Origin: Patescibacteria group bacterium
GTDB lineage: Bacteria; Patescibacteriota; Gracilibacteria; UBA4473
DNA length: 64,000 bases
Direction: 5' to 3'
Assembly (NCBI GenBank): GCA_965660445.1
Contig: CBFIAK010000001.1
Coordinates: forward strand, 42,121-106,120
Shown here: piece by piece, positions 17,390 through 24,373 of the stretch
How the letters are laid out: the number at the start of each line of letters is the position of its first letter
How positions within the stretch are numbered: position 1 is the first letter of the stretch
The notes under the pieces: generated by a model
The model's database searches: none
What the model saw: the letters and a program-made list of their open reading frames with translations, nothing else
Told to the model about the DNA's origin: nothing
Made by a program: the position numbers and the translations under genes

Positions 17390-20092
17390 TTAAAGATTAT
17401 TTTTTGCCTTAATTAGCGCGATATCTTTATTATTATTTCTTGTTTTCAAAGAATCTAGGATCTTTTGACCTGCCTCTGGAGTCCAATATATTTTTAGGTT
17501 TTCTCTAGCTCGTGTAATAGCTGTATAAAAAATATTATGAGTAATCAACTCTTCTGTTTCGGCCGTGATTACAATCTTAACCGAATTATATTCCAACCCT
17601 TGTGCTTTATGGATTGAAACTGCATAAGCTACCTGAAAAGGAATTATTGTGTCCAAAGAGTCATCATCTTCATCAGTACTTTTATACTTGTTAACAACAA
17701 AACGAATCACAGAGGTGTCATCAGATTCACTATCAAGAAGTTCAAGATCATACCTAGACGCTTCAAATCCATTGATAACTTTTCCAATTTCAATATCAAA
17801 TTGTATTTGATCTTCAGAGCTATTTATATCGATGATTCTACCTTTTAAGTTATTATAAATTAAAGGCGAAAATCGTTCTGCCTCGTTAAACAAAATAGGA
17901 TCATTGACCTTATAGGTTTGGATTCCCCATCTCACTGTTTTGTTTTTGTTATTATTTTGTAAAAACCTATTAATATTATTTATTCCATAAAGCCCATCAT
18001 AATTTAAACAAAGAATAATTTCATCGTTTTGTGTATAATCAAAAATTGACTCATCAAGCCTTGCTGAATATTGGTTTCTTGTTATATGCTCAACAATATC
18101 ATCATCAATATTTCGAACTTTATCCCAAAGATCAAGTAAGTTTTTATTTGTTGTTCGGTAAGGCTTCGTTAGTTCAAAAACTGAATGATCTCGTATAAAT
18201 GGTCTAATTACACTAAACCAATTTCCGAATAGAATTGATTCAATTTGGAATATGTCACCAACTAAAACTATAGATAAAAAAGAAACTTTCTCTAATATTT
18301 TTTGCATATCAGTATTACTAACAGTACTGCATTCATCAATAAAGAGTAGATCGAACTCACTATCTTGATTACTTCGAGACAAGAACTTGGATATAGTTTG
18401 AAATTTGCAATTAGAGGCTTGAACTTTTCTTCTCAAATTATCTACAGCAGGGTTTGTGTTTGCTAGATAAAGTTTTCGTTCATCATTAAAAAAATGTGAT
18501 ATGTGATTTATCAGAGTTGATTTGCCAGTTCCTGCCGCACCATAAATTAGAGCTACTTTGGAGCTTTCAAACATTTGTTCAATAAACGATTTTTTTTGAT
18601 CGCAATCAATATCGTAATCAGAAAAATTCAACCAAGCACTAACCGATTTCGAATAGTCTTTAAAGCCTGTTAATGAAAGATCCTTTAATTCATTAATAAT
18701 ATATAATACATCTTTTTCATACCCCCTCATATAAATATGATTCTTATAGCTATCAAGTTTTCGATTTCCGTGAGTAAAATAAAGTGAATTATTATAAGTT
18801 TGAATAAGATCATCAACATTCTCAAAATGATCTAACTCTTCTTGTGGAGTGTATAAATATCCATTAACTTCTGTGTTATTTTTCACAAATCTTGCGAGTA
18901 TTTCGTGCTCTCTACCAGTTGAATCAATGCAATCAAACAAATCTGAAATTTTAGGATTATGGTTTTTTAGAGACGTATTAAATGGCATTTCATCAAAAGG
19001 AATACAACCATATTCAAGTTTTAAATCTGATAACTTTATACAAGATGTTCCTGTATACTGCTTTTTTATAATCTGGTTATTTAACCGATAGAGCAAATAA
19101 GCAATAATATTATGACCTGCTTTTTTATTTTTAATTAAACCTCGACATTCGTCTAAAATACTCAAAAAATGTATAGTTTTAACTCTTGTTTTTAATGCAT
19201 CCTGAAAATCTTTATAATTATCATCAGGAAGATTCATAATTTCAGGAACACTAAGACCAGACCTCTTAAGAAGAGACATTAGTTCTCGTGATTCTGGAGA
19301 GTTTCCTCTCATTTTAAGTTCACTTCCAAATATTTTGGCAAAATTATTGAGCTCACATGGCCTAATTGAGATCTCCCAATCATCAATAATTTGAATCGGC
19401 ATCTGTTTATTCAAAACACTTATATAATCATTACTAATTGAAAGTTTAACGGCATAATTTTTGGAAACATCAAATCGTGTAAATGCAATAATTCTATCAA
19501 ATTTACTTATGTTATTACTTGCTCGAGTAAAAGTTACCTCATAATAAACTTCATATTGAACAAAAAAGGGTTTTATCTTTTGAATATAGTATCTGTCACC
19601 TGTGGATGATTTAGATCTTCTTGATGCTGGCTGTTTAATTTTGTCAACGATCTTTTCATAATACTCACTAAGTGCTGGATCTGTATTTATGGGGAAATCA
19701 CGAATATTACTAAGAACATCAAGTCCATACTGTCTTTTGAGAAAAGATCTTATTTTCAATAGGTATTCATAGTACTTCAAAATTAATCTTTCAGAGTTTT
19801 CTTCATCAAGGGTGTAATGAGAAGCTGAGATTTTTAACAAGCTATGAAATTTTTTTAAGAACTTCAACTTTCCCATTCGGCCTACAAAAGCATTAGCTTC
19901 CTCAATATTTTCGTAATTAATTTTTATATCATCCCCATTACTGAAAATCTTCAATGAGATATGTTCAACAAAATTCCTAAGCTGGGAAAGCATATTTTGA
20001 GAGAGAATACCCCTTTCTGTAACGTCAAATTTATCAATATTAGCACAAAGAAGTTTATCGATATCTAAGATGGCTTTATCTATTTTTTGCAT
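17390..20092 (-). CDS. 900-aa SF1B (RecD/Pif1/Dda-like) helicase with about 510-aa uncharacterised N-terminal region carrying a HEPN-like Rx4H motif
   Basis: C-terminal half has Walker A GAAGTGKST, Walker B LLFIDECS, VGDIFQ, SIHKAQGLEY and YTAITRAREN. The N-terminus has LRNFVEH (R39-H44). The gene looks more AT-rich than its neighbours by eye. Confidence 0.8.
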   Translation of the reverse strand: MQKIDKAILDIDKLLCANIDKFDVTERGILSQNMLSQLRNFVEHISLKIFSNGDDIKINYENIEEANAFVGRMGKLKFLKKFHSLLKISASHYTLDEENSERLILKYYEYLLKIRSFLKRQYGLDVLSNIRDFPINTDPALSEYYEKIVDKIKQPASRRSKSSTGDRYYIQKIKPFFVQYEVYYEVTFTRASNNISKFDRIIAFTRFDVSKNYAVKLSISNDYISVLNKQMPIQIIDDWEISIRPCELNNFAKIFGSELKMRGNSPESRELMSLLKRSGLSVPEIMNLPDDNYKDFQDALKTRVKTIHFLSILDECRGLIKNKKAGHNIIAYLLYRLNNQIIKKQYTGTSCIKLSDLKLEYGCIPFDEMPFNTSLKNHNPKISDLFDCIDSTGREHEILARFVKNNTEVNGYLYTPQEELDHFENVDDLIQTYNNSLYFTHGNRKLDSYKNHIYMRGYEKDVLYIINELKDLSLTGFKDYSKSVSAWLNFSDYDIDCDQKKSFIEQMFESSKVALIYGAAGTGKSTLINHISHFFNDERKLYLANTNPAVDNLRRKVQASNCKFQTISKFLSRSNQDSEFDLLFIDECSTVSNTDMQKILEKVSFLSIVLVGDIFQIESILFGNWFSVIRPFIRDHSVFELTKPYRTTNKNLLDLWDKVRNIDDDIVEHITRNQYSARLDESIFDYTQNDEIILCLNYDGLYGINNINRFLQNNNKNKTVRWGIQTYKVNDPILFNEAERFSPLIYNNLKGRIIDINSSEDQIQFDIEIGKVINGFEASRYDLELLDSESDDTSVIRFVVNKYKSTDEDDDSLDTIIPFQVAYAVSIHKAQGLEYNSVKIVITAETEELITHNIFYTAITRARENLKIYWTPEAGQKILDSLKTRNNNKDIALIKAKNNL

Positions 20093-20210
20093 TCAAAAAT
20101 AATTGAAGAAAATAATACTCTTATACTACTTTTTTGAAAAATATTGAATAGGATTCTTTATCCAAAAAAGGCAAAAGGGTCAATAAACTGTAACATTATA
20201 GTCTTTAATT

Positions 20211-20467
20211 CCACTGCCCTTACTGATCTCTCCACCATAGTGACCAACCTTCCAACCCTTTCGACGACTCTAAGGGTTTAAACAGGTCTTAACAAGCAAA
20301 AATCATAATGTACCACTCCCTAGGAAGTAGATCACTATGACGTATTAGTGAATTGTATGGCGGGCAGGAACGGTCTCATGTCTTATCTGTCATTATCATT
20401 AGCCTTTTTTGTATATCTTTTTATCAAAATGAGACAAATGAGACACTATAAAAAAGGGGTGTCTCAA
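20211..20467. repeat. attP-like junction between the two elements (P-type arm + TGGCGG core + P'-type arm)
   Basis: 20211-20357 aligns co-linearly with 24134-24282 through the blocks ACTGCCCTTA, CGACGACT.T.AAGG.TTTA and ATTAGTG..TTGT.TGGCGG. 20364-20467 aligns with 17305-17387. Confidence 0.55.
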
Positions 20468-20578
20468 TTTTCATAATGTTACAAATGTTACACCGTAGAA
20501 GGGGCATTAAATAAGGAAAAAAATCCTAGACTTCAAAATCCATTGCGTCATCAATTGAATACAAATTTTATTCAACAA

Positions 20579-21817
20579 ATGAATAAGTTAGTACCAGAAG
20601 TGAAATACTGCATCTATGCGAGGAAGTCGAGTGAATCGGATGAGAAACAAGCCCTATCGATTGGATCACAGATAACCGAAATGCAACGGCTGGCAGAAAA
20701 AGAAGGACTCAAGGTCGTTGAGAGCATCCAAGAGAGCAAATCTGCCAAAGACTCGGGGCAAAGAGCAGGATTTACACAGCTTCTCGCAGGGCTTGAGGAA
20801 GAGCGGTTCAATGCCATTCTCACATGGGCACCAGATCGGCTGAGTAGAAATGCGGGAGACCTTGGGAAACTGGTAGATCTAATGGATCAGAAGGTGCTTG
20901 TGAAGATTCAGACAAGCGGACAGGCATTCACAAACACTCCTGATGAAAAATTCCTGCTCATGATCCTGTGTTCTCAAGCCAAGTTAGAAAACGATAACAG
21001 GTCAAAGAATGTGAAACGAGGACAACGAACACGGTGCGAAATGGGAACTAGTCCTGGACCCGTGCCACTTGGATATAAACTCATCCGAGGACAAAAATAC
21101 GGAGAAGCGAGTAAGATTTTAATCGATACGGAACAAGCCCCATTCGTTAAAAAAGCATTCGAATATATCGCTTATGAGAACTTAAGTGGACGACAGGTAA
21201 AAGAATATCTGGAAGATGAAGGATTCCGTAATAAACAAGGGAAAGTCATTGGATATAGTCGAATTTTCAAAATCATTAAAGAACCGTTTTACTACGGTGA
21301 GTTTGATTATGGAGGAATCCGATACAAAGGAACTCATAAACCGATAATCACAAAAGAACTCTTTGATGCTGTTCAAGACAAACTGCAAAAATATGCGGTT
21401 CGAGAAAAATGGGGACGAAAAGATTTTTACTTCAATCGGATTCTGAAATGTGCTGAGTGTGGATCAGGTGTCAGTGGAACAGAACACACAAACAGACATG
21501 GAACCAAATACATCTACTACAAATGCAACAAATATGGCGGAACAAAAAAATGTAGTTGCAAATACATTCGAGAAGAAAAACTTTTTGAAGAAGTGGCAAA
21601 AATCATTGTCGACGTAAAAGAAGAACATCTTCGAATGAATCGACGAATCAAAGAAGACTTAATAATGATAAATCGGCATCACAGAGAAAAACCAATAACA
21701 ATCCAAGAGCATTTAATCTCCATACTCAAGGATGGAACGAAAAAAGAGAAATCTGATATTTTGAGGAGTTTTAAAGAGAAATTATTATTGAAAGATGGGA
21801 AAATAGTATTGTTTTAA
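20579..21817 (+). CDS. Large serine recombinase (resolvase/invertase catalytic domain + recombinase domain + zinc ribbon)
   Basis: N-terminal YARKSS catalytic-serine context, a central recombinase domain, and a Cys cluster CAECGSG..YYKCNKYGGTKKCSC. The track start at 20543 is TTG; ATG 20579 is preferred. Confidence 0.85.
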   Translation: MNKLVPEVKYCIYARKSSESDEKQALSIGSQITEMQRLAEKEGLKVVESIQESKSAKDSGQRAGFTQLLAGLEEERFNAILTWAPDRLSRNAGDLGKLVDLMDQKVLVKIQTSGQAFTNTPDEKFLLMILCSQAKLENDNRSKNVKRGQRTRCEMGTSPGPVPLGYKLIRGQKYGEASKILIDTEQAPFVKKAFEYIAYENLSGRQVKEYLEDEGFRNKQGKVIGYSRIFKIIKEPFYYGEFDYGGIRYKGTHKPIITKELFDAVQDKLQKYAVREKWGRKDFYFNRILKCAECGSGVSGTEHTNRHGTKYIYYKCNKYGGTKKCSCKYIREEKLFEEVAKIIVDVKEEHLRMNRRIKEDLIMINRHHREKPITIQEHLISILKDGTKKEKSDILRSFKEKLLLKDGKIVLF

Positions 21818-21900
21818 CGTCAGGAATATACGAAGTTTTGCGACTGAAAGGAGTAAAATTTGGGTGAAGCCTGCAAGGATTTTCTCTTTAAGCCTTGTTA
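21815..21900. repeat. Cassette-associated repeat R2 (attC-like, degenerate)
   Basis: Shares the blocks TAAC.TCAGGA, AAGTT, TTTGGG, CCTGCAAGGA, TTTCT and CCTTGTTA with R1 at 22531-22606. It lies immediately 3' of the 2H phosphoesterase gene in the minus direction. Confidence 0.5.
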
Positions 21901-21971
21901 TGTGGTTTTTCTGCAAGAAAAACTGCTGGAGAAAATCTTTGATTTTCGTAAGCACAGTATGACGGAGGACA

Positions 21972-22469
21972 CTATCTACTAGAATAAAAATCCTGTATTT
22001 CTTTCCAACTTCCATCAATCTTTTTTGCTAAAGAGTATCTTGAGATTCTATCTTTTCGACTAATTAATTCTTTTGAAGTTCTATCAAATTGTGAAGATGA
22101 TTTTGAAATTGTTAAATGTGGATTATAATTATCTTCAAAATATTGTTTTGCGATTACATCAAATTCTGAATCAGCATAATTTCTTACAACAGAAACAATT
22201 CCTTTATGCAATTGCAAAAGCTCATCAGAACGAGATAATTTTAACACTAAAGAATCTTTATCAAAATCATCGAAACCTAAAGTTTCAAATTCAAAAGGAT
22301 TAAAACTAATTTGAGAAAAATCAGTAACCAATTTATTTTCATGTTTAGGTTTCATATAGAAAAAACAAAGTGTAGAATGTAAACCAGAACTTGGTAGAAC
22401 TAAATTATTTTGTCTCGAAATTAAATTGGACAATTCTTCGTTTGGTCGAAAATAAGCAAGATACTTCAT
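21972..22469 (-). CDS. 2H phosphoesterase superfamily protein (LigT/cyclic phosphodiesterase-like)
   Basis: 165 aa with two HxT/S motifs in the expected hydrophobic context (GLHSTLCFF and NPHLTISK). Confidence 0.7.
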   Translation of the reverse strand: MKYLAYFRPNEELSNLISRQNNLVLPSSGLHSTLCFFYMKPKHENKLVTDFSQISFNPFEFETLGFDDFDKDSLVLKLSRSDELLQLHKGIVSVVRNYADSEFDVIAKQYFEDNYNPHLTISKSSSQFDRTSKELISRKDRISRYSLAKKIDGSWKEIQDFYSSR

Positions 22470-22530
22470 AAATTAAGGAAAGAAATACAGTAATATAAAT
22501 ATTTGGATAGTGTTCGAGTAATATTGCACA

Positions 22531-22606
22531 TAACATCAGGATTTAACAAAGTTCGCGGAGCGAATTTGGGAAATTCCTGCAAGGAATTTCTGTTAAATCC
22601 TTGTTA
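22531..22606. repeat. Cassette-associated repeat R1 (attC-like)
   Basis: Perfect 10-bp inverted repeat GGATTTAACA (22539-22548) / TGTTAAATCC (22591-22600), enclosing hairpins TTCGC-GGA-GCGAA and GAAATTCCT-GCA-AGGAATTTC. It lies 3' of the isochorismatase-family gene in the minus direction. Confidence 0.55.
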
Positions 22607-22670
22607 AATGAGGGTGAGCGAAGCGAAAGGCTGCAAGCCGTCCCCGACTGACTGCAAGGAAGGAGAGTTT

Positions 22671-23189
22671 CTACAAACAAACGTCATCAGTCAAGAGAAT
22701 TTGCTTTTTACCAAGAATATGTTTTAAACTATCAATTGCCGAATCATGATTATTTTTCCCATGTAAAGAATTACAAGCATCTTCAATTACAAAAGTTTCA
22801 ATATTATTATCAAATAAATCCATCGCAGTTTTGATAATACAAACATCCGTGTAAATCCCAGTAAGATAAATTTTTGTAATTTTATTAGTTTTAATGAATT
22901 CTTTTAATTCATTATTTAATACAGTATAAGTATTATGCTGAATGTTTATATTGTCTGATGTTTGTAATTCGGAAAATAGTTTTTGATCTTCTTTATTTTG
23001 AAATTTAGTCCAACTTAATTGTTTTTCAAATAAAGATTTTCCATCATTAACAAATGTTGGAAAAACTATTTTTCCATTAAATGATTCTTTCAATTTTAAA
23101 AGATTCGGCAATATATTCTCAGATTCTTGGTATCTAAAACCTTCTTGCATATCAATTATTAAAAGCAAATTCTCCATAATATAAAACAT
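22671..23189 (-). CDS. Isochorismatase/nicotinamidase-family cysteine hydrolase
   Basis: 172 aa with LLIIDMQEGF (catalytic Asp context) and LTGIYTDVCII (catalytic Cys context). An alternative ATG lies at 23177. Confidence 0.7.
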   Translation of the reverse strand: MFYIMENLLLIIDMQEGFRYQESENILPNLLKLKESFNGKIVFPTFVNDGKSLFEKQLSWTKFQNKEDQKLFSELQTSDNINIQHNTYTVLNNELKEFIKTNKITKIYLTGIYTDVCIIKTAMDLFDNNIETFVIEDACNSLHGKNNHDSAIDSLKHILGKKQILLTDDVCL

Positions 23190-23311
23190 AAATTACTTTG
23201 TATATAAAAGTTTGTTTGTAGAAATTTCATTTAACTCGTTTTTATCCAACCTTTGTATTTCAAATATAGCAATTTCTTGTATGTTATGCAAACTTTTATT
23301 ATTCTTTGGAT

Positions 23312-24124
23312 ATGGAAAATATTTTGGACAAAACCGAACGAGTTTGGAAATTGAGAAACTACTCCCCAAAAACTCGCAAAGCATATCTGTTCTACATAAG
23401 AGAGTATATCAGTTTTTCTAAAGGAAAAGGAATTAAAGATAAACAAAAAGCGATTGAAGATTTTTTGCTTGATAAATACAATCGTAAACAATCTCCGCAA
23501 ACAGTTAATCTGGCACTCAATGCGGTAAAATTTCTGTACGCGGAAGTTTTGAAAGATCCACAAAAGATTGACTTGAAGTTTGCGAAGAGAGACAAGAAAT
23601 TACCCATTGTTTTGTCTCATGCAGAAATTAAAGAAATTATCCAGGCGACTGAAAATGCAAAATACAAACTCATGATTTCGCTTGGCTATGCTTGCGGTCT
23701 GCGTGTGAGTGAAGTTATAAATCTACGTGTTGCAGATTTGGATATTGATGAACTCGTCGTACATATCAAAGGAGCAAAGGGGAAAAAAGACAGAATCAGT
23801 GTTTTGCCAGAAAAATTACAAAATGATTTGCGAAATATCATTGCAGGCAAAAGTAATAATGATTTTATCTTTGCCTCTAATCGAGGAGGAAAACTCACAA
23901 CAACGTCTTTACAAAAAATGTTCCGCAAAAGTTTAGCCAATACGAACATAAGAAAACCCGCTACCTTTCACTCATTGCGTCATTCATTCGCCACGCATTT
24001 ACTCGAAAATGGAACCGATGTGAGATATGTGCAAGAACTGCTTGGGCATTCCAACATCCGCACCACACAAGTGTATACGCAAGTAACAAATCCAAAGTTA
24101 AAGAACATAAAAAGCCCTTTATAA
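23312..24124 (+). CDS. Tyrosine recombinase, XerC/D-IntI-like
   Basis: 270 aa with an N-terminal SAM-like YSPKTRKAYLFYIREYISF, then GLRVSE, HSLRHSFATHLL and LLGHSNIRTTQVYT. It lacks the roughly 35-aa insertion typical of integron integrases. The track start at 23306 is TTG. Confidence 0.85.
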   Translation: MENILDKTERVWKLRNYSPKTRKAYLFYIREYISFSKGKGIKDKQKAIEDFLLDKYNRKQSPQTVNLALNAVKFLYAEVLKDPQKIDLKFAKRDKKLPIVLSHAEIKEIIQATENAKYKLMISLGYACGLRVSEVINLRVADLDIDELVVHIKGAKGKKDRISVLPEKLQNDLRNIIAGKSNNDFIFASNRGGKLTTTSLQKMFRKSLANTNIRKPATFHSLRHSFATHLLENGTDVRYVQELLGHSNIRTTQVYTQVTNPKLKNIKSPL

Positions 24125-24133
24125 ATATTTTTA

Positions 24134-24288
24134 AAACTGCCCTTATCGCACATACCTCATAGGAAGCAAAAACTCCTACCCATGCGACGACTTTGAAGGC
24201 TTTATCAACGCTAAATACCCCAAATGTCCCAATGCCCCATCCACCATAGTGGAAAGGAACCAGGTGCCATTAGTGCGTTGTCTGGCGG
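24134..24288. repeat. attR-like site: P-type arm plus TGGCGG core (= CCGCCA 3' end of tRNA-Ser)
   Basis: Co-linear similarity to 20211-20363. The core is the last 6 nt of the tRNA gene. Confidence 0.55.
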
Positions 24289-24373
24289 AGAGAGAGGGAT
24301 TCGAACCCTCGGTTCCGGAAAACGGAACACACGCTTTCCAAGCGTGCGCATTCGACCACTCTGCCATCTCTCC
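24283..24373 (-). tRNA. tRNA-Ser (anticodon GGA), class II with long variable arm, CCA encoded
   Basis: Reverse complement GGAGAGA-TG-GCA..TGC-G-CACGC-TTGGAAA-GCGTG-T-GTTCCG-TTTTC-CGGAAC-C-GAGGG-TTCGAAT-CCCTC-TCTCTCC-G-CCA folds as a cloverleaf, 91 nt. Confidence 0.92.

What the first reader, a model, noticed from the sequence alone, without database searches (positions are those of the whole stretch)
21812..24124. Integron-like layout: divergent tyrosine recombinase plus two promoterless-looking cassettes, each followed by an attC-like repeat
Reading the minus strand away from the tyrosine recombinase gene (23312..24124, +), the order is as follows. First a 122-nt spacer containing GTTAAAT (plus-strand ATTTAAC, 23229-23235, next to the palindrome GAAATTTC). 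Then ORF 1 (isochorismatase family), repeat R1, ORF 2 (2H phosphoesterase) and repeat R2. R1 (22531-22606) and R2 (21815-21900) are about 70 percent identical by eye. R1 has a perfect 10-bp inverted repeat GGATTTAACA / TGTTAAATCC. Its cores ATTTAAC and GTTAAAT fit the attC R'' RYYYAAC and R' GTTRRRY consensus. They are separated by about 60 nt, which is within the attC size range. The same ATTTAAC heptamer recurs at the attI-like position. Implied cassette lengths are about 690 and 730 bp. The recombinase N- and C-termini resemble IntI (YSPKTRKAYLFYIREYISF; HSLRHSFATHLL..LLGHSNIRTTQVYT). To my knowledge integrons have not been described in CPR-type bacteria. Three caveats apply. The recombinase (270 aa) lacks the IntI-specific insertion. 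The R2 cores are degenerate (TTTTAAC / GTTATGT). The R1 interior folds as two short hairpins rather than one bulged stem.
Basis: partly seen in the sequence, partly recalled or inferred. Interest (0 to 1): 0.7.

Follow-up and report, generated by a model that had tools for sequence, protein, structure and literature searches.

The report
Integron-like gene cassette array in CPR bacterium
A small, very conserved recombinase in this ultra-small (CPR) bacterium sits beside a docking site where single-gene cassettes, each ending in a foldable DNA signal, have been inserted one after another; it works like an integron, but the enzyme lacks the domain thought essential for integrons.

Summary
R1 (22527-22610) and R2 (21811-21904) belong to a family of about 70-200-nt Y-shaped sites. 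A covariance model found 110 same-strand copies in 81 sources. Of these, 109 lie upstream of a conserved 270-aa tyrosine recombinase. Only AAC...GTT is invariant, and 22 of 26 base pairs covary. A conserved attI-like junction (xxxxxAAC|TSGTTWTTAT) lies 75-168 nt upstream of the recombinase start in 67 of 81 sources. The decisive test is the cassette signature. The five variable bases at the far end of a site complement those at the next element towards the recombinase in 41 of 80 pairs, against 5.4% by chance (P about 1e-30). Both window pairs match 8/8. In ten samples of one species with an identical recombinase, the sequence is identical up to AAC and then carries at least six different first cassettes. 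Window cassette 1 recurs at about 90% nucleotide identity in an unrelated contig, and the homology starts exactly at G|TT. The recombinase is closest to IntI by HMM, sequence and fold, but it lacks the IntI-specific domain and scores below the curated cutoff. This is therefore a new variant, not a canonical integron. I found no prior description.

The parts
23312..24124 (+). 270-aa tyrosine recombinase, closest to IntI but without the IntI-specific insertion
   Evidence: Pfam PF00589 and PF13495. Best NCBIfam model is TIGR02249 integron integrase, 226 bits, below the 265 cutoff, matched in two stretches. Best PDB hit is 2a3v VchIntIA, 160.9 bits; IntI4 residues about 211-241 have no counterpart. 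Foldseek top hit is 2a3v. More than 120 clusters at 82-94% identity, nearly all 270 aa.
23236..23311 (.). attI-like conserved region between the cassette junction and the recombinase start; the core is TCGTTTTTATCCAACC at 23236-23251
   Evidence: Conserved at 75-85% across loci while the sequence to its left is unrelated. The junction motif AAC|TSGTTWTTAT is present in 67 of 81 sources, 75-168 nt from the start codon. In one species, homology among 10 samples ends exactly at AAC.
23228..23235 (+). Junction octamer CATTTAAC: the first bases of cassette 1 joined to attI; the crossover lies within or next to AAC
   Evidence: It is the exact reverse complement of the outer right box of R1, GTTAAATG 22603-22610.
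23263..23292 (-). Outward-facing promoter-like site (TTTGCA-18-TATATT with TG), a candidate cassette promoter
   Evidence: Consensus scan. TTGCAT-N16-18-TAxxxT occurs in 22 loci; the -10 element lies a fixed 27 nt from the junction in 21. This is a consensus match only.
22534..23234 (-). Cassette 1 (701 bp): one ORF followed by site R1
   Evidence: Boundaries come from the cassette signature. About 90% nucleotide identity to L096, starting exactly at G|TTAAATG.
22671..23189 (-). ORF1, isochorismatase-family cysteine hydrolase
   Evidence: PF00857, 1.5e-28. Homologues at 76-84% identity in many CPR assemblies and in assemblies labelled as DPANN archaea.
22527..22610 (+). Site R1, attC-like, a well-formed three-way junction; the folding strand is +
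   Evidence: Covariance model score 65.6 bits, E 2e-12. ssDNA fold -22.2 kcal/mol, z -6.7.
21818..22533 (-). Cassette 2 (716 bp): one ORF followed by site R2
   Evidence: The R2 right box GTTATGTG is the reverse complement of the R1 left box CACATAAC, 8/8.
21972..22469 (-). ORF2, 2H phosphoesterase / 2'-5' RNA ligase superfamily
   Evidence: PF13563, 2.7e-9; TIGR02258, 1.1e-6.
21811..21904 (+). Site R2, the terminal attC-like site; a hybrid whose two halves do not pair
   Evidence: Covariance model score 54.9 bits, E 8.5e-10. No stable fold, z about 0. Each arm resembles the arms of other sites.
24283..24373 (-). tRNA-Ser(GGA), convergent, its 3' end 158 nt from the recombinase stop codon; a recurrent neighbour of the platform
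   Evidence: ARAGORN and Rfam. A convergent tRNA or tmRNA lies within 500 nt in 29 of 77 loci.

Best explanation
This is an integron-type gene-capture platform. The recombinase (23312-24124) recombines a double-stranded attI-like site just upstream of its own gene (crossover within or next to AAC at 23233-23235) with attC-like sites carried by circular single-gene cassettes. Each insertion puts the newest cassette next to attI and splits its site. As a result, the last bases of every site in the array belong to the next cassette. The attC-like site acts as folded single-stranded DNA of the strand complementary to the cassette ORFs. It has an outer stem closed by the invariant AAC/GTT, and a 2-4-nt pyrimidine bulge on one side only. 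It also has a covarying 10-bp stem and two hairpins that often carry GNA triloops. Cassettes point away from the recombinase. They are probably read from an outward promoter in the attI region. Shown here: the architecture, the structure conservation, the strand bias, the chimeric boundaries, the population-level turnover at attI, and one cassette reused elsewhere. Inferred: that this recombinase is the catalyst, that the substrate is ssDNA, that the junction is resolved by replication, and that the promoter functions. The window carries two cassettes (an isochorismatase-family hydrolase and a 2H phosphoesterase), and the second ends in a defective hybrid site.
For: Site family: 110 same-strand hits in 81 sources, 109 of them upstream of the recombinase, although 448 kb downstream was searched against 276 kb upstream. 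Structure: 93.3% of cells paired against 71.2% in shuffles; 22 of 26 pairs with compensatory changes; covariation score 0.538 against 0.151, and at most 0.088 when slid. Only AAC...GTT(A) and the junction motifs are invariant. Cassette signature: 41 of 80 neighbour pairs are perfect against a 5.4% null (P 1.4e-30). A site's own two ends match in 2 of 92 cases, and the wrong-side neighbour in 3 of 44. Both window pairs match 8/8. Population evidence: 10 samples with an identical recombinase and identical downstream synteny are identical up to AAC and then carry at least 6 different first cassettes, and the signature is 8/8 in those samples too. Cassette reuse: window cassette 1 and L096 share about 90% nucleotide identity starting at G|TT. 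Cassette anatomy: 105 cassettes, median 819 bp. In 84 of the 92 cassettes of 2.5 kb or less that have an ORF of 40 aa or more, the largest ORF points away from the recombinase with the site at its 3' end. The cargo spans 69 Pfam families in 82 proteins. Folding strand: G-T 279 against A-C 40; C-GNA-G 124 against 6; the + strand is more stable in 94 of 109 sites, P 1.7e-15; the bulge is on one side only in 109 of 110. Recombinase: the best HMM, the best PDB sequence hit and the best fold match are all IntI.
Against: The recombinase lacks the IntI-specific additional domain, which the literature calls necessary for integron recombination. It also scores below the TIGR02249 cutoff. My site model finds nothing in a class 1 integron, so the sites are a separate family from classical attC, and the IntegronFinder model was not run. 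R2 and at least two other sites are hybrids with breakpoints in the middle of the site, which the integron crossover does not predict. There is no experimental evidence of recombination, circles or transcription. The site model was trained on sites found next to recombinases; position and strand were not used in the training.
Confidence: 0.82

Rival explanations
1. The recombinase is the housekeeping chromosome-dimer resolvase of CPR bacteria (a single-recombinase Xer, like the XerS/difSL module). On this view the attI-like site is dif, and the 'cassettes' are small elements that exploit Xer, as CTX phage does with a folded ssDNA site.
For: The protein is a minimal Xer-like recombinase, collinear with XerA. 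The literature places 'Cand' recombinases of candidate phyla among Xer-like, presumed essential enzymes. It is under extreme purifying selection: 85% amino-acid identity with third codon positions near saturation. By eye, the attI core reads like ATAA-N6-TTAT, as in dif. In XerS the site is adjacent to its recombinase gene (my own knowledge).
Against: A separate protein that scores much better on XerD/XerC (235-251 bits) is encoded within a few kb in L016 and L066. The cassette recombinase itself scores best on IntI. There is no switch of coding strand at the locus in the window. Only 3 loci with at least 1.5 kb of upstream sequence lack detectable sites. The cassettes are single promoterless-looking ORFs with none of the replication or regulatory functions expected of Xer-exploiting elements. 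This rival would change the enzyme's primary role, not the cassette mechanism.
Confidence: 0.1
2. The sites are recombined as ordinary double-stranded sites, like pdif modules on Acinetobacter plasmids, and not as folded single strands. The palindromy would then only reflect binding of two recombinase monomers.
For: The enzyme lacks the helix that IntI uses to read extrahelical bases. Hybrid sites exist whose halves come from different sites.
Against: The stems keep pairing while their sequence changes freely (645 compensatory cells), which duplex protein recognition does not select for. There is a strong strand asymmetry: G-T against A-C, GNA triloops 124 against 6, and a one-sided bulge. All sites are in direct orientation, and the boundaries lie at one end of the site.
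Confidence: 0.05
3. The region is a conventional tRNA-targeting genomic island. The recombinase would be the island integrase next to tRNA-Ser, the ORFs would be cargo, and the repeats would be incidental terminators or RNA elements.
For: A convergent tRNA or tmRNA lies within 500 nt of the recombinase stop codon in 29 of 77 loci. GC content is low at 17-20 and 22-24 kb. One hairpin in R1 resembles a terminator.
Against: There is no direct repeat of the tRNA 3' end in the window. The recombinase has no arm-binding domain. This view does not explain the arrays, the boundary signature or the turnover at AAC. The folding strand is antisense to the cassette mRNAs. There is no Rfam match.
Confidence: 0.03

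Closest known systems
Integrons (IntI, attI, attC; class 1 mobile integrons and sedentary chromosomal integrons of Vibrio)
   Same: The recombinase gene and cassette array are divergent. The attI lies next to the recombinase gene with an outward promoter-like site. The cassettes carry a single ORF of about 0.5-1.5 kb, and their sites conserve structure while only AAC/GTT is invariant. The site boundaries are chimeric, and the strand complementary to the cassette ORFs (the bottom strand) is the one that folds. Cargo is highly diverse and includes a toxin-antitoxin cassette.
   Different: The recombinase has no IntI-specific additional domain (270 aa against about 320-337). Every site is a Y-shaped three-way junction with conserved GAAGTT/AATTTGGG junction motifs, GNA triloops and a one-sided pyrimidine bulge. 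My model does not detect a classical attC. Arrays are short, 1-8 sites in the 6-10 kb examined. The recombinase is unusually conserved. The platform often abuts the 3' end of a tRNA gene.
Xer/dif systems and the elements that exploit them (CTX phage ssDNA hairpin integration; the XerS/difSL module)
   Same: A minimal Xer-like recombinase. The site may lie next to the recombinase gene. A folded ssDNA partner, a single strand exchange and tandem accumulation at one site are all known for CTX phage (my own knowledge).
   Different: A separate XerC/D-like gene coexists in two genomes. The inserted units are single promoterless-looking genes, not phages or plasmids. All share one site family and one orientation.
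'Cand' subgroup of Xer-related tyrosine recombinases from candidate phyla (Smyshlyaev et al. 2021, PMC8138268)
   Same: Probably the same or an overlapping protein group: short, simple tyrosine recombinases from candidate phyla.
   Different: That work classified the proteins only and grouped them with presumed housekeeping Xer enzymes. The text I read describes no sites, cassettes or arrays. I did not test whether this protein belongs to their subgroup.
pdif modules of Acinetobacter plasmids
   Same: Gene modules bounded by Xer-type recombination sites.
   Different: pdif sites are 28-bp duplex sites in alternating orientation that use host XerC and XerD (my own knowledge). The sites here are 70-200-nt structured sites in direct orientation, next to a dedicated recombinase.

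Membership tests
Integron | Integrase belongs to the IntI family (curated model TIGR02249) | tested here: not met
   TIGR02249 is the best-scoring model, but at 226 bits it is below the curated cutoff of 265. IntI is still the closest solved relative by sequence and by fold.
Integron | IntI-specific additional domain near patch III (the I2 helix, the intI_Cterm profile of IntegronFinder) | tested here: not met
   The alignment to VchIntIA skips IntI4 residues about 211-241. The TIGR02249 match is split in two. Nearly all close relatives are 270 aa. The feature is defined in PMC9668308 and PMC4889954.
Integron | attC: an imperfect inverted repeat in which structure, not sequence, is conserved, with AAC and GTT triplets in the outer boxes | tested here: met
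   AAC...GTT is invariant, and 22 of 26 pairs show compensatory changes.
Integron | Sites are detected by the IntegronFinder or HattCI attC models | not testable with these tools
   The model files are not held. In the reverse test, my model does not hit the class 1 integron L092, which includes the dfrA14 attC.
Integron | attI next to the integrase gene, with cassettes inserted there | tested here: met
   A conserved junction is present in 67 of 81 sources. Homology among samples of one species ends at AAC, beyond which lie at least 6 different first cassettes.
Integron | Chimeric sites: the bases beyond the crossover belong to the next cassette | tested here: met
   41 of 80 pairs are perfect against a 5.4% null, P 1.4e-30. 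Controls give 2 of 92 and 3 of 44. The class 1 example shows the same pattern by eye.
Integron | Cassettes carry a single ORF, mostly without a promoter, co-oriented, with the site at the 3' end | tested here: met
   84 of 92 are co-oriented, and the ORF covers 80% of the inter-site space. Absence of a promoter was not tested.
Integron | The bottom strand is the one that folds and recombines | tested here: inconclusive
   Sequence statistics favour folding of the strand complementary to the ORFs. Recombination itself was not tested.
Integron | A cassette promoter (Pc) in the integrase gene or attI region | tested here: inconclusive
   A promoter-like site lies at 23292-23263 (-). TTGCAT-N16-18-TAxxxT occurs in 22 loci; the -10 element lies a fixed 27 nt from the junction in 21. 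These are consensus matches only.
Xer/dif chromosome dimer resolution | The genome's only or main Xer recombinase, acting at a dif site in the terminus region | tested here: inconclusive
   A better XerC/D candidate coexists in L016 and L066. There is no coding-strand switch at the locus. The terminus position could not be determined.
tRNA-targeting integrative island | A direct repeat of the tRNA 3' end at the far end of the island, and an integrase with an arm-binding domain | tested here: not met
   No repeat of 15 nt or more in the window. The only domains are SAM_4 and the catalytic domain.

The most novel reading that the evidence does not exclude
This may be a distinct and widespread integron lineage confined to CPR/Patescibacteria. 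Its integrase never acquired, or has lost, the I2 additional domain. It would recognise Y-shaped single-stranded DNA sites through a one-sided pyrimidine bulge and conserved junction motifs. On that reading it is either a living intermediate between Xer/dif and integrons or an independent invention of cassette capture. The roughly 0.9-kb platform (attI plus recombinase gene) would itself be mobile and would target the 3' ends of tRNA and tmRNA genes. Its cassettes would circulate among CPR bacteria and possibly DPANN archaea.
Probability: 0.4. Interest if true: 0.92.

Novelty: new variant of a known kind. Interest (0 to 1): 0.85.

Why it matters
Integrons are defined partly by an integrase domain held to be necessary for recombining folded attC sites. 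I found no report of integrons in CPR bacteria, a large share of bacterial diversity. Here a complete cassette-capture architecture, with population-level evidence of turnover, runs on a minimal Xer-like enzyme that lacks that domain. Three consequences follow if this holds. First, standard integron finders, which require the IntI-specific profile, would miss this class. Second, it offers a natural test of how single-stranded-site recombination evolved from Xer-type enzymes. Third, it gives reduced-genome symbionts a dedicated route to gene gain. Its cargo consists of small enzymes such as methyltransferases, hydrolases, deaminases and a restriction endonuclease. The compact 270-aa enzyme with structured sites may also interest people who build DNA-integration tools.

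Tried and rejected
- Looking up the recombinase from the TTG start found nothing. The ATG form found a single 3.9-kb contig with the same layout, so it showed no variation.
- All-against-all BLASTP of 92 cassette proteins found no shared cassettes among species representatives. Cassette reuse had to be found through homologues of ORF1.
- The large serine recombinase and the RecD-like helicase to the left of R2 are not recurrent partners of the system.
- A scan of viral contigs found no relatives.
- Rfam gave no match at either threshold.
- The supplement holding the IntegronFinder attC model is not available. I did not build a proxy model from a few class 1 attC sites, because a negative result would not have been informative.
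- No direct repeat of the tRNA-Ser 3' end was found.
- GC skew follows the coding strand, so it could not locate the replication terminus.
- L098 and L099 have small co-oriented ORFs upstream of the recombinase but no detectable site. These may be decayed arrays.


Full report
**What is in the window**

The order on the + strand is as follows:
- a large serine recombinase gene, 20543-21817 (+)
- repeat R2
- a 2H-phosphoesterase ORF, 21972-22469 (-)
- repeat R1
- an isochorismatase-family ORF, 22671-23189 (-)
- a 122-nt spacer
- a 270-aa tyrosine recombinase gene, 23312-24124 (+)
- a convergent tRNA-Ser(GGA), 24283-24373 (-)

The domain assignments hold. R1 and R2 are a real direct repeat, 82% identical over 44 nt. 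Their core pattern occurs only at these two places in 64 kb, with 0.00-0.15 expected. R1 folds very stably as single-stranded DNA (z about -7). R2 does not. There is no Rfam match at either threshold.

**The repeats belong to a large family tied to the recombinase**

The recombinase has thousands of relatives. The best 120 clusters are 82-94% identical, nearly all 270 aa, and where a source names them they are mostly labelled as many different CPR lineages. A scan of species-representative genomes gave 80 loci. BLAST and a regular expression then found R-like elements upstream of the recombinase in many of them.

I aligned 29 of these elements. The consensus fold is a three-way junction:
- an outer stem closed by the invariant AAC and GTT
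- a 10-bp second stem whose sequence varies freely
- one hairpin closed by the conserved AAGTT/AATTT
- a second hairpin closed by GGG/CCY

A covariance model built from this alignment found 112 matches in the window plus the 80 loci. Of these, 110 are on the recombinase strand and 109 lie upstream of the recombinase. More sequence was searched downstream (448 kb) than upstream (276 kb). The window has exactly two hits, R1 (65.6 bits) and R2 (54.9 bits).

Covariation across the 112 matches is strong:

| Measure | Observed | Control |
|---|---|---|
| Cells forming a standard pair | 93.3% | 71.2% in shuffles (0 of 500 reach the observed value) |
| Pairs with compensatory changes | 22 of 26 | 15.6 in shuffles |
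| Covariation score | 0.538 | 0.151 in shuffles; at most 0.088 when partners are slid |

**There is an attI-like site**

The spacer upstream of the recombinase is conserved across loci. The sequence to its left is unrelated. Conservation starts at xxxxxAAC|TSGTTWTTAT, present in 67 of 81 sources, 75-168 nt from the start codon. In the window this reads CATTTAAC|TCGTTTTTATCC, with AAC at 23233-23235.

**The cassette signature is the decisive test**

Suppose circular cassettes insert by a crossover at AAC/GTT, as in integrons. Then the bases beyond the crossover at the far end of each site belong to the next cassette. The outer box next to a cassette's ORF must also complement the bases at that cassette's own start.

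I compared the five variable bases beside GTT of each site with those beside AAC of the next element towards the recombinase:

| Comparison | Perfect matches |
|---|---|
| Next element towards the recombinase (predicted to match) | 41 of 80 |
| Subset where the next element is attI | 20 of 38 |
| Random pairs between loci (null) | 5.4% (binomial P 1.4e-30) |
| A site's own two ends | 2 of 92 |
| Neighbour on the wrong side | 3 of 44 |

In the window both pairs match 8/8. The R2 right box GTTATGTG complements the R1 left box CACATAAC. The R1 right box GTTAAATG complements the attI junction CATTTAAC.

**Population-level turnover**

One recombinase protein (P0030) occurs unchanged in many samples of one marine species. 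The downstream genes are the same in each (2-hydroxyacid dehydrogenase, SecG, a solute-binding protein, RNase J). In ten such contigs the DNA is identical from the recombinase start back to AAC|TGGTTTTTATCTGAAC. Beyond that point it diverges completely, into at least six different first cassettes. The boundary signature holds there too, at 8/8 in L082, L083, L084 and L087. Most contigs that carry this gene are short, and many break just upstream of it. That pattern fits strain-variable arrays.

**A window cassette is reused elsewhere**

Homologues of ORF1 at 76-84% identity are widespread. In contig L096 the homology to window cassette 1 is about 90% at the nucleotide level. It begins exactly at G|TTAAATG and runs through the ORF, the 3' untranslated region, the outer box and the first arm of the second stem. 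L096 has no recombinase. There the cassette is followed by an antitoxin-PemK cassette and a second, weak site.

**Cassette anatomy**

The loci yielded 105 cassettes with a median length of 819 bp (interquartile range 656-1175). In 84 of the 92 cassettes of 2.5 kb or less that have an ORF of 40 aa or more, the largest ORF points away from the recombinase with the site at its 3' end. That ORF fills 80% of the space between sites. The proteins are almost all unrelated to one another. They span 69 Pfam families in 82 proteins, including methyltransferases, a deformylase, a racemase, Mrr, deaminases and a radical SAM enzyme. Arrays are short, with 1-8 sites in the 6-10 kb examined.

**Which strand folds**

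Three statistics point to the recombinase-sense strand, which is the bottom strand relative to the cassette ORFs:
- At paired positions there are 279 G-T cells against 40 A-C cells. Two nearly invariant G-T positions supply 193 of the 279.
- C-GNA-G pentamers number 124 on this strand against 6 on the other, and this strand folds more stably in 94 of 109 sites (P 1.7e-15).
- A 2-4-nt pyrimidine bulge (TTT, TC, TTC) lies between the two stems on the 5' side only. Nothing lies opposite it in 109 of 110 sites.

GNA triloops closed by C-G are a hallmark of very stable DNA mini-hairpins (my own knowledge). The folding strand is antisense to the cassette mRNAs. Both points argue for a DNA role and against an RNA role.

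**The recombinase**

| Comparison | IntI | Xer relatives |
|---|---|---|
| NCBIfam models (bits) | TIGR02249: 226, below the 265 cutoff | XerA 209.7, XerD 182.5, XerC 178.6 |
| PDB sequence search (bits) | VchIntIA 2a3v: 160.9 | XerA about 140, XerD 93 |
| Foldseek on an AlphaFold model (pLDDT 74.9) | 2a3v ranks first | XerA ranks next |

The alignment to VchIntIA is split, and about 31 IntI residues (211-241) have no counterpart. That stretch is the IntI-specific additional domain. The literature treats it as defining and necessary.

IntI1 on plasmids is about 38% identical, also in two pieces. Third codon positions among relatives are near saturation (about 50% identity) while the proteins stay about 85% identical. 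The enzyme is therefore under very strong purifying selection. In L016 and L066 a different protein scores far better on XerD/XerC (235-251 bits) and lies within a few kb. The cassette recombinase is therefore not the only Xer-like enzyme in those genomes.

**Promoter**

A promoter-like site faces the cassettes at 23292-23263 (TTTGCA-18-TATATT with TG). A TTGCAT-N16-18-TAxxxT element occurs in 22 loci; the -10 element lies a fixed 27 nt from the junction in 21. These are consensus matches only.

**Relation to known systems**

In function and architecture this is an integron. It fails two membership criteria, the curated IntI score and the additional domain. My model also does not recognise a classical attC in a class 1 integron. 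The IntegronFinder model itself could not be run.

My literature searches found no description of integrons or attC sites in CPR/Patescibacteria. The closest mention is a 'Cand' subgroup of Xer-related recombinases, described without any sites. The library does not cover every journal, so an earlier report cannot be excluded.

**Rivals**

- *Housekeeping Xer/dif with exploiting elements.* The coexisting Xer and the IntI-like score weaken it. It would in any case leave the cassette mechanism unchanged.
- *Duplex-only recombination.* It does not explain the covariation or the strand asymmetry.
- *A tRNA island with incidental repeats.* It does not explain the arrays, the boundary signature or the turnover, and no tRNA repeat exists in the window.

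**Open points**

- R2, L047:1701 and the L096 site are hybrids whose halves come from different sites. Their breakpoints lie at conserved central motifs. The integron crossover does not predict this.
- The platform abuts the 3' end of a tRNA or tmRNA gene in 29 of 77 loci, sometimes within 2-4 nt. This suggests that the platform itself moves.
- Catalysis by this enzyme, the ssDNA substrate and transcription from the outward promoter are all inferred.

Noticed in passing
window 24125-24373; L010, L053 and 27 other loci: A tRNA or tmRNA gene lies convergent with the recombinase, its 3' end within 500 nt of the stop codon, in 29 of 77 non-redundant loci (Ser 14, Leu 5, Ala 5, and one each of Ile, Val, Lys, Trp and tmRNA). 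No locus has a same-strand tRNA there. The gap is only 2-4 nt in L053 and L010. The attI-plus-recombinase platform therefore seems to be mobile and to target tRNA 3' ends. In L053 the far junction reads TTATAAAC|TGGTGCC, which resembles attI (AAC|TGGTT).
   Followed up: partly
window 21811-21904 (R2); L047:1701-1788; L096:6661-6754: These are hybrid sites: the two arms of the second stem come from different sites and do not pair. The breakpoints fall at conserved central motifs, either the AATTTGGG junction or the CCTGCAAGG hairpin loop. The end-of-site crossover does not explain this. Exchange at microhomology or a second crossover point are both possible.
   Followed up: partly
window 22611-22670 and 21905-21925; similar flanks in L002, L004, L017, L047, L054: Extra GC-rich mini-hairpins lie between the ORF stop codon and the site, outside the modelled structure. 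Examples are GCGAAGC, GGCTGCAAGCC and TTTTTCTGCAAGAAAAA. Motifs such as GAGCGAAGCGA also recur at cassette starts next to attI in other loci. Their function is unknown.
   Followed up: no
window 17390-21817: A low-GC block (about 0.30) holds a 900-aa RecD/TraA-like helicase (-) and a 424-aa large serine recombinase (+). The recombinase stop codon lies inside the outer box of R2 (TTGTTTTAAC). This looks like a second mobile element abutting the end of the array. It is not a recurrent partner in other loci; only L057 and L035 have relatives.
   Followed up: partly
recombinase genes of the window and L001-L031: The recombinases are 80-89% identical in protein across nominally distant CPR lineages, yet third codon positions are only about 50% identical, close to saturation. 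Purifying selection is unusually strong for a mobile-element enzyme. I did not resolve whether old horizontal spread or vertical descent explains the distribution.
   Followed up: partly
P0131, P0189, P0193, P0200, P0220; L095:6001-6507: Close homologues (46-82%) of the window's isochorismatase cassette protein are labelled as DPANN archaea. L095 carries an 82% homologue among archaeal ribosomal protein genes (S19e, L31e) with no attC-like site nearby. This may reflect gene exchange between CPR bacteria and DPANN archaea, or it may be a binning error.
   Followed up: partly
L096:5930-7720 (and L097): Here a cassette cluster has no recombinase. It holds the isochorismatase cassette, preceded by a diverged attI-like remnant (AGTTCGGTAAAAAGGTG|TTAAATG), and then an antitoxin plus PemK toxin cassette with a weak second site. 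This is analogous to attC clusters that lack an integrase and to toxin-antitoxin cassettes in integrons.
   Followed up: partly
L016:983-1891; L066:5376-6320: A separate XerC/D-like recombinase (302-314 aa, best models XerD/XerC at 235-251 bits) is encoded close to the cassette recombinase. In L016 its start overlaps the stop codon of the cassette recombinase gene.
   Followed up: yes
window 23236-23300 and the attI regions of L001-L080: The attI region contains a direct repeat, TTATCCAAC...TTATGCAAAC (TTATACGAA twice in distant relatives). By eye its core reads xxxATAA-CTSGTT-TTATxCRAA, which recalls the arm-spacer-arm layout of dif. In L003 and L009 the cassette-side arm and the conserved arm form a perfect inverted repeat (TTCGTA...TACGAA).
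   Followed up: no
L098:8358-10000; L099: A recombinase 89% identical to the window's has two small co-oriented ORFs upstream (HIT family, 141 aa; an unknown protein, 303 aa), followed directly by mur genes. The model detects no site at E below 0.1. This may be a decayed or fixed array.
   Followed up: no
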